Assembly: GCF_017348835.2 (NCBI RefSeq)
Contig: NZ_CP072313.1
Origin: Escherichia coli
GTDB taxonomy: Bacteria > Pseudomonadota > Gammaproteobacteria > Enterobacterales > Enterobacteriaceae
Direction: 5' to 3' (one strand)
Length of the DNA: 36,351 nt
Part shown: one piece after another, positions 25,137-27,386 of the stretch
Position numbering within the stretch: the stretch's first letter is position 1
Layout of the letters: each line of letters starts with the position of its first letter
Notes under the pieces: model-generated
Told to the model about the DNA's origin: nothing
What the model saw: the letters and a program-made list of their open reading frames with translations, nothing else
Database searches by the model: none
Made by a program: the position numbers and the translations under genes

Positions 25137-25541
25137 ATGGCTTTATCCCCCAAAGAAAAGAAAGAGTTACAACAACGCTTCGAAAAGCAATTACTACCTG
25201 ACCTTGATCTGTCATTTGAACTAAATGGCGAAGTATATAAATTTAATTTTGATAAAAATAAGTCAGGTGACTATATCGACAGTTTTACACAAGCAGTATG
25301 GGGAGGTTATCAGGATGCCGAGGAATGGAAAAAATATGGTAAACATCAGGAGACAGAATTACCTGAATACCCTGAACCAGTCGAGGGTTCGTGCGACTGT
25401 GATAAATGTAAGTCGATGATTTTTCATAAAGAGAAAAATATTTATGTTTGCCTCTCCTGCCATAAACAAACAGAGCCATTTCTTCCAATTGACTGGAACT
25501 CAAACGATTACGATTGGCTACCTTATGAAGATGAATACTAA
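25137..25541 (+). CDS. hypothetical protein with C-terminal zinc-ribbon-like motif (134 aa)
   Basis: AGAGG Shine-Dalgarno; CDCDKC...CLSCH Cys cluster; acidic C-terminus. Confidence 0.55.
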   Translation: MALSPKEKKELQQRFEKQLLPDLDLSFELNGEVYKFNFDKNKSGDYIDSFTQAVWGGYQDAEEWKKYGKHQETELPEYPEPVEGSCDCDKCKSMIFHKEKNIYVCLSCHKQTEPFLPIDWNSNDYDWLPYEDEY

Positions 25542-25576
25542 TGCTGAATACTTCAAAATCATAATGGGGGAAAGAA

Positions 25577-25825
25577 ATGCATTCTTCTTTTGGTTTGCCA
25601 TATCCTGCTGGTCACTGGTTTTATTCTTTACAGGACTTACTCGACAATCCTGTATTTATGGTTTCTTTCTTTGTTTTCTGGGTGGCAACGGGTCAATTTT
25701 TATTAACAACTGCACACAGAAAATTTAATATATCTGAAACAGTTGAGATGGTTATCATCGCTTTATTAATGATACTAATGACTCTTTCTTTTTATCTTTG
25801 TGCAATATTAAAGGCTTCTTTTTAA
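25577..25825 (+). CDS. small membrane protein (82 aa, two predicted transmembrane helices)
   Basis: GGGGG Shine-Dalgarno; hydrophobic segments. Confidence 0.5.
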   Translation: MHSSFGLPYPAGHWFYSLQDLLDNPVFMVSFFVFWVATGQFLLTTAHRKFNISETVEMVIIALLMILMTLSFYLCAILKASF

Positions 25826-25842
25826 ATTAGAGATTAAAATCA

Positions 25843-26172
25843 ATGGTGACGATAATAATTGGTGTATCGAGAGTTATTGATTATAAAATGGGGGGAGTGT
25901 CAGTTGATATTCCTCCATTCCCTGAATGGAACAGTGGTCATTATATAGAAATTCCAGGAGAGGGTATTGTATTCACTGGTGAAAAAGATGATGACGGCAA
26001 ACGGTGTTACTCTGGTGTCATCGAATCTCATTACAGCACCGATGACTGGGCGTTTATTCTTTCTGAGTACAAAAACTGGCTGAATGACAAGGAAAGAAAG
26101 TTTTCTTATCTGTTTGTCTTATGCAATGGTGAACTTGTTTACCATGAGGTCAACAAATCAGAACTTCTTTGA
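25843..26172 (+). CDS. hypothetical protein (109 aa)
   Basis: ORF in the track, tightly spaced within the operon. Confidence 0.5.
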   Translation: MVTIIIGVSRVIDYKMGGVSVDIPPFPEWNSGHYIEIPGEGIVFTGEKDDDGKRCYSGVIESHYSTDDWAFILSEYKNWLNDKERKFSYLFVLCNGELVYHEVNKSELL

Positions 26173-26198
26173 CTACGATAAAGATAAAGGAAATAGAT

Positions 26199-26786
26199 AT
26201 GTACCTACATATTGTCCCTAAACTTTTTCATCGCATGGCGAACAAATGCACTCTAAAATCCATCTCCATACCTGAACTTGATTTAATAATTGATGGCGAA
26301 TCATTGTCTGTAGGGAGGCCGTGGCCTAACAAATGTTTGTGGGTTGGAATGCGGAAAAGCAGAAAGGCAGTTAATGGACTTCTTTTGCATACAGATAAAA
26401 AACTAAGATGGTTCACTACCAGATATACCTGGGATATTGAAGATATGGGATTAATTCATCATCAGGTTAATACTTATATTGAAGATAATGAATTTGATAT
26501 GGTATCACAGGAAATTCTCTTAAATGGTTCTTTTGATAAGTGGAGTGACAGGGTGCATTCAGCTTATGAAGGTAAGCCTCCAGCAATAATCCAGCCCAAA
26601 ATGGAATCATTTTTAAAAAGACCAGGTGAAGACAGTCATGATATGTGGGAGGAGTTCGAGTGGGGTAACTTCCTCATATCAAGAGAAGAAAGCCTTTTAC
26701 TTCACACTATTCAGTCTGAACGATTGAATACAGATTGTTCTTTATTCAAAAGACAACCGTCTATTGAAAGTGCATTAGTTATATAA
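26199..26786 (+). CDS. hypothetical protein (start taken at ATG 26199; the ORF track starts at TTG 26169)
   Basis: AGGAAA Shine-Dalgarno 8 nt before the ATG; no family recognised. Confidence 0.5.
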   Translation: MYLHIVPKLFHRMANKCTLKSISIPELDLIIDGESLSVGRPWPNKCLWVGMRKSRKAVNGLLLHTDKKLRWFTTRYTWDIEDMGLIHHQVNTYIEDNEFDMVSQEILLNGSFDKWSDRVHSAYEGKPPAIIQPKMESFLKRPGEDSHDMWEEFEWGNFLISREESLLLHTIQSERLNTDCSLFKRQPSIESALVI

Positions 26787-26810
26787 ATCAGATACTCTTT
26801 GGTGGTTATT

Positions 26811-27386
26811 ATGCAATATGCATTGTTTGATGGATTTGAACGAAAGTTTTTGCTGGATGCTCTTGAATTTGGTGTTCTGAAGGACTGGAAAAAAAATCCG
26901 GTAAAAGAACTTCCTGATATTGATGAATCTGTTCACCCCTTCCATGTCTGCTATGGTGGATATTTATTAAATCCTAGTGTTTCAGATTCTGATATTAGCA
27001 GAAAAATAAAAGACCAGACAGGATTCTGGCTGGCAGCTATTGATGACACCCGCATGGATTGTCATTCAATAGCTTATTATGATATTCACACACTCCCTAT
27101 GATTTCGTGTGGTCATCAGAAGATAGTTCCTTTTGCCGCGTTAATAAAAGCTGATGAATGCATCATTTCAAAAATTGCTTCGTATTCTGGTTTTGCTGTA
27201 ACAGCCTTTTTGAGAATTAAAGACTGGGATATTGCAACTAATATACTTAACCGTGAGGGAATTTTTGCCTTTAATGGCTGTGAGCGCAGATTCAAACAAC
27301 CTGTAAGTGAAGATAACTGGCAACAGGAAGTATCAGAAGAACGCGCTATCCGTTGTGCCAAAAGATTAATTCAATGTAAAGGATAA
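26811..27386 (+). CDS. hypothetical protein (start taken at ATG 26811; the ORF track starts at TTG 26799)
   Basis: GGTGG Shine-Dalgarno 5 nt before the ATG; ends 4 nt before topB. Confidence 0.5.
   Translation: MQYALFDGFERKFLLDALEFGVLKDWKKNPVKELPDIDESVHPFHVCYGGYLLNPSVSDSDISRKIKDQTGFWLAAIDDTRMDCHSIAYYDIHTLPMISCGHQKIVPFAALIKADECIISKIASYSGFAVTAFLRIKDWDIATNILNREGIFAFNGCERRFKQPVSEDNWQQEVSEERAIRCAKRLIQCKG

What the first reader, a model, noticed from the sequence alone, without database searches (positions are those of the whole stretch)
25137..27386. Five-gene operon of unknown function directly upstream of topB
Five tightly spaced co-oriented genes encode a zinc-ribbon protein, a small membrane protein and three proteins of 109, 195 and 191 aa, ending 4 nt before topB. 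None shows a motif I recognise, and the block lies in a variable position beside a nuclease pseudogene. This is a candidate accessory system, for example defence, anti-defence or conjugation modulation.
Basis: inference. Interest (0 to 1): 0.7.

Follow-up and report, generated by a model that had tools for sequence, protein, structure and literature searches.

The report
Swappable unknown genes before plasmid topB
The five genes are real and none resembles a characterised protein, but they are not one five-part system: the last one is a conserved companion of the plasmid's topoisomerase III gene across many resistance plasmids, and the other four are swappable cargo in a variable slot just upstream.

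Summary
In detail: five co-oriented ORFs (134, 82, 109, 195 and 191 aa) end 4 nt before topB. Three pairwise dN/dS estimates are informative (about 0.1); the others rest on too few differences. The window is a whole 36-kb IncI2-replicon conjugative plasmid, a near-copy of pDETEC35.

Only the 195-aa protein has a family match (Pfam DUF6012). NCBIfam, PADLOC, PHROGs and PDB give nothing. AlphaFold models of the two largest proteins have no real structural neighbour.

The "one system" reading fails, because the genes have different distributions: 312, 72 (full length), 2223 and 1202 plasmids. The slot between a T4SS-linked thermonuclease gene and the 191-aa gene holds other cargo in related plasmids: an AAA+ ATPase, PcfJ, other unknown ORFs, or nothing.

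The 191-aa gene (P5) is the constant. It sits directly before topB in IncX1, X4, X6, IncI2 and Pantoea plasmids, one gene away in a Morganella contig, and before a 25%-identical type IA topoisomerase elsewhere. Its family covers Gram-negative and Gram-positive conjugative elements and is absent from 50,697 phage records.

Best reading: P5 is a TopB companion, and P1-P4 are independent accessory cargo. No function has been shown. The NCBI names "DNA topoisomerase III" (P5) and "exodeoxyribonuclease V beta" (P1) are unsupported.

The parts
24956..24997 (+). Strong hairpin (20-nt arms, 2-nt gap) just after the upstream ORF and 46 nt before the homology junction. It is a possible operon boundary or RNA element. 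It has no U-tract.
   Evidence: RNA dG -28 kcal/mol, z = -7.2, 0 of 200 shuffles fold as well
25044..25121 (+). 3' remnant (last 25 codons plus stop) of a thermonuclease (SNase-family) gene. This is the left edge of the module shared with IncX1 and IncI2 plasmids.
   Evidence: 100% identical to IncX1 nuclease residues 154-178; homology to both IncX1 and IncI2 starts at 25043
25137..25541 (+). P1: 134-aa acidic protein (pI 4.6) with a C-terminal CxCxxC...CxxC zinc-ribbon-like motif and a conserved acidic/aromatic tail. Narrow Enterobacterales plasmid family. Cargo gene.
25577..25825 (+). P2: 82-aa protein with two predicted transmembrane segments. Present in this plasmid and some IncI2 plasmids (unannotated there), absent from IncX1. 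Cargo gene.
25843..26172 (+). P3: 109-aa acidic protein (pI 4.7). Full length in 72 plasmid records. A C-terminal remnant is seen in many IncI2 plasmids. A 61%-identical homologue lies between P5 and topB in a Morganella contig. Cargo gene.
26199..26786 (+). P4: 195-aa member of Pfam DUF6012. Mostly beta, with no informative structural neighbour. A stand-alone gene in 2223 plasmid records of many types and in Vibrio telomere phage-plasmids. Cargo gene.
26811..27386 (+). P5: 191-aa founding-type member of an unnamed family (start MQYA...) with no structural neighbour in the PDB search. It is the conserved upstream neighbour of topB, with a 4-nt gap here. Proposed TopB companion.
27391..29553 (+). 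topB: 720-aa type IA DNA topoisomerase (Topo III-like). It is the conserved downstream partner of P5.

Best explanation
The five ORFs are real genes but not one machine. They form the modular tail of the plasmid's long + strand transfer gene array (T4SS, coupling protein, small genes, then this block and topB).

Core (shown by synteny): P5 is the fixed upstream neighbour of the plasmid type IA topoisomerase gene topB.

Core (inferred): P5 acts with TopB, for example as an accessory or targeting factor. TopB would process plasmid DNA (single-strand passage, unlinking) during conjugative or vegetative replication, alongside the hha and hns silencing genes that follow topB in relatives.

Cargo (shown): P1-P4 sit in a recombination-prone slot between a T4SS-linked thermonuclease gene and P5. 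Other plasmids carry quite different genes there.

Cargo (inferred): each cargo gene acts on its own as a plasmid accessory function, such as host or recipient modulation or plasmid maintenance. P4 (DUF6012) is the most widespread of them.
For: - The genes are real: intact homologues, with dN/dS about 0.1 for P3 and P4.
- Their distributions are independent: P1 312, P3 72 full-length, P4 2223 and P5 1202 plasmid records.
- The slot contents differ by lineage. IncX1: nuc, P1, a 106-aa gene, P4, P5, topB. IncX6: AAA, P5, topB. IncX4: AAA remnant, P5, topB. IncX3: nuc, AAA, topB, no P5. The more common IncI2 arrangement's hits: PcfJ, P3 remnant, P5, topB. Pantoea: nuc, three unknown ORFs, P5, topB. 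Morganella: P5, P3-like, topB.
- P5 stays directly before topB while TopB identity falls to 43%.
- A 36%-identical P5 sits 16 nt before a type IA topoisomerase that is only 25% identical to this TopB, in a differently arranged T4SS plasmid.
- Two more P5-bearing elements carry a type IA topoisomerase 6 kb and 14 kb away.
- The P5 family is specific to conjugative elements: T4SS, coupling-protein or relaxase genes lie nearby in most contexts read, and no phage among 50,697 records has it.
- The same truncated-nuclease junction at 25043 occurs in this plasmid and in IncI2, so the block has moved between backbones as a unit.
Against: - There is no experimental or structural evidence of a P5-TopB interaction.
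- P5 homologues below about 35% identity (Vibrio, Bacillus and several metagenomic contigs) are not next to a topoisomerase.
- No type IA topoisomerase was annotated in the 62 of 83.5 kb of the Bacillus plasmid that were read.
- IncX3 keeps topB without P5.
- Only about a dozen contexts were sampled out of 283 family clusters.
- The genome-wide locus scan returned just 5 loci, so the association was not tested statistically.
- Part of the adjacency within Enterobacterales may simply be shared descent.
- For P1-P4 the proposed roles are inference only.
Confidence: 0.45

Rival explanations
1. Each of P1-P5 is an individually acting anti-defence or establishment protein (anti-restriction, SOS or host-response modulation), and P5's position before topB is incidental.
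For: - P1 and P3 are small acidic proteins (pI 4.6 and 4.7), as several DNA-mimic anti-restriction proteins are (own knowledge).
- Distant P5 homologues sit next to ArdC-N and in an array of small co-oriented genes with ankyrin-repeat and N6-methylase-like products.
- P4 homologues sit in similar arrays on IncHI2 and IncHI1B plasmids and beside a large N6 DNA methylase in Pseudomonas.
- Anti-defence genes are also found outside leading regions (PMC11541004).
Against: - No match to any known anti-defence, defence or phage family.
- P4 and P5 models show no similarity to any solved structure, known anti-restriction proteins included.
- By the usual rule that the relaxase gene enters last, the block lies at the trailing end of transfer, not in the leading region. 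This is inference from gene order.
- The recurrent P5-topoisomerase adjacency at 36% and 25% identity is hard to credit to chance.
Confidence: 0.25
2. One reading: the five genes form one multi-component accessory system (defence, anti-defence or conjugation control).
For: The genes are tightly spaced and co-oriented, with no internal terminator-like sites. The whole block is shared at 89% nucleotide identity with some IncI2 plasmids.
Against: - The components occur separately and in different numbers of plasmids.
- P2 and P3 are swapped for an unrelated gene in IncX1.
- IncX4 and IncX6 keep only P5.
- P4 is a solitary gene elsewhere.
- There are no PADLOC matches.
Confidence: 0.07
3. The products are conjugation accessory factors made with the T4SS. 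Examples: proteins exported through the T4SS into the recipient, or surface or entry exclusion in the case of the membrane protein P2.
For: - The block continues the + strand T4SS and coupling-protein gene array.
- P5 homologues lie after VirD4, TrbM and PcfJ, or at the head of a Gram-positive conjugation operon.
- P5 is absent from phages.
Against: - No similarity to known T4SS components or substrates.
- P4 also occurs far from any T4SS and in phage-plasmids.
- In IncX3, deleting several nearby conserved hypothetical genes changed transfer less than 12-fold (PMC11880322), though the slot genes themselves were not deleted.
Confidence: 0.13

Closest known systems
IncX backbone module topB-hns/sfx (with hha in many plasmids)
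   Same: Same place in the plasmid. In relatives, topB is followed by hha and hns. The literature treats topB-sfx as a syntenic IncX module (PMC11796372; PMC11880322).
   Different: The papers read here do not mention the genes upstream of topB. This work adds a conserved companion gene (P5) and a variable cargo slot. This particular window has lost the hha-hns segment.
Eukaryotic Topo III-alpha with its accessory subunit RMI1 (a functional analogy only)
   Same: If the inference is right, a small non-catalytic protein is encoded with, and works with, a type IA topoisomerase III. The comparison rests on own knowledge of RMI1.
Pfam DUF6012 (PF19475)
   Same: P4 matches the model end to end (E = 8.8e-35).
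   Different: The family has no known function, and no paper in the searched library mentions it.
Leading-region anti-defence islands of conjugative plasmids (Samuel et al. 2024, PMC11541004)
   Same: An array of small co-oriented genes of unknown function. Some distant homologues have ArdC or methylase neighbours.
   Different: Here the array is next to the relaxase gene's 3' end and follows the T4SS genes, so it is probably transferred last. It has no match to known anti-defence families.
PcfJ-like proteins (PF14284) of conjugative plasmids
   Same: PcfJ occupies the same slot directly upstream of P5 in IncI2 plasmid pHeN867 and in an unrelated T4SS contig. The two PcfJ proteins are 29% identical.
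   Different: PcfJ is absent from this window, and its own function is unknown.

Membership tests
Pfam DUF6012 (P4) | Significant full-length match to the family HMM | tested here: met
   E = 8.8e-35, residues 1-193 against model positions 1-196 of 200
Type IA DNA topoisomerase (the name P5 carries in NCBI and UniProt records) | Toprim and Topoisom_bac domains | tested here: not met
   No Pfam match even at E <= 10. No NCBIfam match. No PDB sequence match. No profile similarity to IncX3 TopB. The name is unsupported.
Exodeoxyribonuclease V beta / RecB (the name P1 carries in NCBI records) | UvrD-type helicase and PD-(D/E)XK nuclease domains | tested here: not met
   P1 is 134 aa. It has only sub-threshold zinc-ribbon Pfam matches and nothing in NCBIfam.
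Zinc-ribbon proteins (P1) | Two conserved Cys pairs about 14 residues apart | tested here: met
   Cys86/88/91 and Cys105/108 are kept in all full-length homologues.
Zinc-ribbon proteins (P1) | Significant match to a zinc-ribbon profile | tested here: not met
   The best Pfam match, Zn_ribbon_ACC, has E = 0.042.
Known anti-phage defence systems (PADLOC-DB 2.0) | Match of any component to a defence-system model | tested here: not met
   0 families for P1-P5 at E <= 1
Known anti-restriction or SOS-inhibitor folds (ArdA, ArdB/KlcA, Ocr, PsiB) | Structural similarity of the predicted fold | tested here: not met
Multi-gene system (any kind) | Components co-occur across genomes | tested here: not met
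   Different record counts, and the genes occur separately.
Leading-region anti-defence island | Lies in the DNA transferred first, on the side of oriT away from the relaxase gene | tested here: inconclusive
   Gene order puts the block beside the 3' end of the relaxase gene, convergent with it, which suggests late entry. The nick site and its polarity were not determined.
TopB-associated companion (proposed here for P5) | Immediate adjacency to a type IA topoisomerase gene in independent lineages | tested here: met
   Directly adjacent in IncX1, X4, X6, IncI2 and Pantoea. One gene away in Morganella (P5, P3-like, topB). Also adjacent in a contig whose topoisomerase is 25% identical. Not universal: absent in the Vibrio and Bacillus contexts.
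TopB-associated companion (proposed here for P5) | Physical or functional interaction with the topoisomerase | not testable with these tools

The most novel reading that the evidence does not exclude
P5 founds a new family of accessory subunits for plasmid-borne type IA topoisomerases. It would be a bacterial functional counterpart of RMI1 with an unrelated fold, needed for TopB to act on conjugative plasmid DNA. It is present on IncX4 and IncI2 plasmids of the kinds that spread mcr-1.
Probability: 0.2. Interest if true: 0.7.

Novelty: new variant of a known kind. Interest (0 to 1): 0.42.

Why it matters
The role of plasmid-encoded topoisomerase III is still unknown (PMC4207749). A conserved, tightly coupled companion gene gives a concrete handle on it.

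P5 and P4 are carried by more than 1,000 and more than 2,000 sequenced plasmids, including IncX4 and IncI2 plasmids of the types that carry mcr-1. Any role in transfer, establishment or stability would therefore bear on the spread of resistance.

The work also flags two misleading database names that propagate through annotation. It identifies a cargo hot spot where new accessory genes can be looked for.

Tried and rejected
- NCBIfam, PADLOC and PHROGs searches of P1-P5 gave nothing usable.
- Pfam on P1, P3 and P5 gave nothing significant. Pfam on 53 diverse P5-family members gave no family at E <= 0.001.
- PDB sequence searches with P4, P5 and a P5 profile gave nothing.
- Foldseek of P5 against AFDB50 returned only uncharacterised relatives.
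- P4 and P5 are not paralogues (hhalign probability 0.1%).
- There is no P5-like domain hidden in the longer IncX3 TopB.
- The Bacillus 1415-aa neighbour of P5 is not PcfJ-like.
- P1 is unrelated to the 134-aa ORF upstream of P5 in Morganella.
- The genome-contig scan failed with the broad alignment. With the narrower one it returned only 5 loci, too few for statistics.
- A literature search for DUF6012 found 0 papers.
- The IncX3 deletion study did not include the slot genes.
- The pseudogene or non-coding reading was rejected on dN/dS and on intact homologues.
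Full report
**Observation.** The window carries five co-oriented + strand ORFs at the stated coordinates:

| Gene | Coordinates | Length |
|---|---|---|
| P1 | 25137-25541 | 134 aa |
| P2 | 25577-25825 | 82 aa |
| P3 | 25843-26172 | 109 aa |
| P4 | 26199-26786 | 195 aa from ATG |
| P5 | 26811-27386 | 191 aa from ATG |

They are followed after 4 nt by topB (27391-29553, 720 aa). P1, P2, P4, P5 and topB each have a Shine-Dalgarno-like motif; P3's is weak. P1 has conserved Cys86/88/91 and Cys105/108. P2 has two hydrophobic segments. P1 and P3 are acidic, with pI 4.6 and 4.7.

All five have intact homologues without stops. Against an IncI2 and an IncX1 relative, dN/dS is 0.11 for P3, 0.11-0.13 for P4, and 0.36 for P2 from only 22 differences. 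P1 and P5 have too few differences in these pairs to be informative. Deep homologues at 30-60% identity show that P1, P4 and P5 are conserved.

No + strand terminator-like site lies inside the block, and promoter-like matches are not enriched over shuffles. The 'nuclease pseudogene' is the last 25 codons of a thermonuclease gene (25044-25118).

**Context.** The window is essentially a complete circular plasmid. It aligns end to end at 99.7-99.98% with the 38.3-kb E. coli plasmid pDETEC35 (IncI2-type replicon). The one difference is that 2.24 kb carrying hha, hns, a hypothetical gene and the dqlB toxin is replaced here by 263 bp.

The + strand runs from a VirB-type T4SS through the coupling protein (21665-23716) and three small genes into P1-P5 and topB. 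This array converges on the LPD7-domain relaxase gene (29724-33011, minus strand) and its RHH partner.

**Family searches.** NCBIfam, PADLOC and PHROGs give nothing significant for P1-P5. Pfam finds only DUF6012 for P4 (E = 8.8e-35). P1 has sub-threshold zinc-ribbon matches, and P3 and P5 have none. PDB sequence searches with P4 and P5 are empty. No paper in the library mentions DUF6012.

NCBI and UniProt records call P5 'DNA topoisomerase III' and P1 'exodeoxyribonuclease V subunit beta'. Neither name has any domain support.

**Not one system.** By tblastn against 72,556 plasmids:
- P1 is in 312 records.
- P3 is full length in 72 records and present only as a fragment in about 440.
- P4 is in 2223 records.
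- P5 is in 1202 records.

Nucleotide homology to IncX1 covers 25043-25573 and 26150-29384, so P2 and P3 are replaced there by an unrelated 106-aa gene. Homology to one IncI2 plasmid covers 25043-29384 at 89%. Both homologies begin at the same point inside the truncated nuclease gene. The block has therefore moved between backbones as a unit. Synonymous divergence varies from 0 to 0.75 between adjacent genes, a sign of mosaic recombination.

**The slot.** Reading the same position in relatives gives one pattern: thermonuclease, then variable cargo, then P5, topB, (hha), hns.

| Lineage | Order at the slot |
|---|---|
| IncX1 | nuc, P1, 106 aa, P4, P5, topB, hha, hns |
| IncX6 | AAA+ ATPase, P5, topB, hha, hns |
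| IncX4 | remnant of that ATPase, P5, topB, hha, hns |
| IncX3 | nuc, AAA+ ATPase, topB, hns (no P5) |
| IncI2, more common arrangement's hits (read in pHeN867) | PcfJ, P3 C-terminal remnant, P5, topB, hha |
| Pantoea stewartii contig | nuc, three unknown ORFs, P5 (65%), topB (43%) |
| Morganella contig | two unknown ORFs, P5 (69%), P3-like (61%), topB (50%), hns-like |

P5 is the constant element next to topB.

**P5.** A profile search of 1.84 billion representative proteins finds 283 clusters. Almost all of the 150 listed are stand-alone proteins of about 180-200 aa whose match begins at residue 1, and the aligned members start MQYA. The rare N-terminal extensions sometimes contain Cys-pair motifs. 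None of 53 diverse members has a Pfam domain.

Members occur in Enterobacterales, Vibrio, Photobacterium, Burkholderia-group, Bacillus, Clostridium and Enterococcus. No phage among 50,697 records has one.

The contexts read mostly contain conjugation genes:
- Vibrio plasmids: beside a lytic transglycosylase and an LPD7 relaxase.
- A contig with VirB11, VirD4, TrbM and PcfJ directly before P5.
- The head of the conjugation operon of a Bacillus cytotoxicus plasmid.
- A coupling protein 6 kb away.
- ArdC-N next door.

One distant homologue matters most. It is 36% identical to P5 and lies 16 nt upstream of a type IA topoisomerase that is only 25% identical to this TopB, in a plasmid where the pair precedes rather than follows the T4SS genes. 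Two other P5-bearing elements carry a type IA topoisomerase 6 kb and 14 kb away.

Against this, several contexts show no topoisomerase within the flanks read. None was annotated in 62 of 83.5 kb of the Bacillus plasmid.

**P1-P3.** P1 is a narrow Enterobacterales plasmid family. One relative fuses the P1 C-terminal part to a thermonuclease domain. P2 and P3 are rarer. No structure could be predicted for them within the quota.

**Position relative to transfer.** In well-studied plasmids the relaxase operon is transcribed away from oriT and enters last (own knowledge of F, RP4 and R388). If the same holds here, oriT lies near 33410-33752 and the block is among the last DNA transferred. It would then not be a classical leading-region island. 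This is inference; the nick site was not mapped.

**Literature.**
- The function of plasmid topB is stated to be unknown.
- A deletion series in the IncX3 plasmid pHNYX644 found little effect for the nearby hypothetical genes. It did not include the slot gene, and IncX3 lacks P1-P5.

**Mechanism.**
- Best reading (confidence 0.45): P5 is a companion of plasmid TopB, and P1-P4 are independent cargo in a hot spot. Shown: the synteny, the independent distributions and the movement of the module. Inferred: that P5 and TopB work together, and what the cargo genes do.
- Rival 1 (0.25): individually acting anti-defence or establishment proteins.
- Rival 2 (0.13): T4SS-linked accessory or exported proteins.
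- Rival 3 (0.07): a single five-part system.

**Novelty and score.** The sequences are already in databases as hypothetical proteins, so the genes themselves are not new. The recognition of P5 as a conserved TopB neighbour with no structural neighbour in the PDB search, and of the cargo slot, appears undescribed in the literature searched. I rate it a new variant of a known kind, namely the IncX/IncI2 topB-hha-hns module, with interest 0.42. The most novel reading not excluded is that P5 is a new class of topoisomerase III accessory subunit (probability about 0.2).

Noticed in passing
window 29385-29647 and 29631-29716: Compared with pDETEC35, the window lacks 2.24 kb after topB (hha, hns, a hypothetical gene and the dqlB type I toxin), replaced by 263 bp. 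An AgrB-family antisense sRNA match (Rfam RF02891, 61.9 bits) remains at 29631-29716, while no DqlB-like ORF is found. This looks like an orphan antitoxin RNA.
   Followed up: partly
window 24956-24997: Very stable hairpin (20-nt arms, dG -28 kcal/mol, z -7.2) without a U-tract. It sits between the upstream small ORFs and the nuclease remnant, 46 nt before the recombination junction at 25043.
   Followed up: partly
window 689-1122, 2448-2867, 4518-4953, 21378-21658; also 10602-10786, 14979-15163, 23722-23907, 35663-35848; and 7302-7553 vs 35981-36232 (inverted): Three sets of dispersed repeats (about 280-435 bp, about 185 bp and 252 bp; 87-96% identical) are scattered round the plasmid. They were seen as off-diagonal matches to the near-identical pDETEC35. 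Two copies flank the coupling-protein gene. Their nature is unknown.
   Followed up: no
window 26811-27386 and 25137-25541: Public records name P5 'DNA topoisomerase III' and P1 'exodeoxyribonuclease V subunit beta'. Neither protein has any matching domain, so these look like propagated misannotations.
   Followed up: yes
L019 4501-4653 (IncI2 pHeN867) and about 440 similar records: Many IncI2 plasmids of about 60 kb keep only the C-terminal 51 codons of P3 (88% identical, unannotated). In pHeN867 this remnant lies between a PcfJ-domain gene and P5, a scar of cargo replacement.
   Followed up: partly
L018 4303-4494 (IncX4 pP744T-MCR1): An unannotated remnant of the C-terminus of the IncX3/X6 AAA+ ATPase (73% identical, 64 codons) lies directly upstream of P5. 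IncX4 therefore probably descends from an AAA-P5-topB arrangement.
   Followed up: partly
window 24368-24706: The 112-aa basic ORF upstream of the block matches PHROG family phrog_17934 (unknown function, E = 3.5e-17). It is the only gene in this neighbourhood with a phage-family match.
   Followed up: no
L032 5001-5984 (Vibrio phage vB_Va_Val-yong3): A DUF6012 domain forms the N-terminal part of a 327-aa protein directly downstream of parA-parB in phages that carry a telomere resolvase. This hints at a link with plasmid maintenance.
   Followed up: partly
L016 5547-7582 and L019 2821-5242: PcfJ-domain genes (29% identical to each other) sit immediately upstream of P5 homologues (53% identical to window P5 in L016) in two otherwise different plasmids. 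This is a second recurrent neighbour of P5 besides topB.
   Followed up: partly
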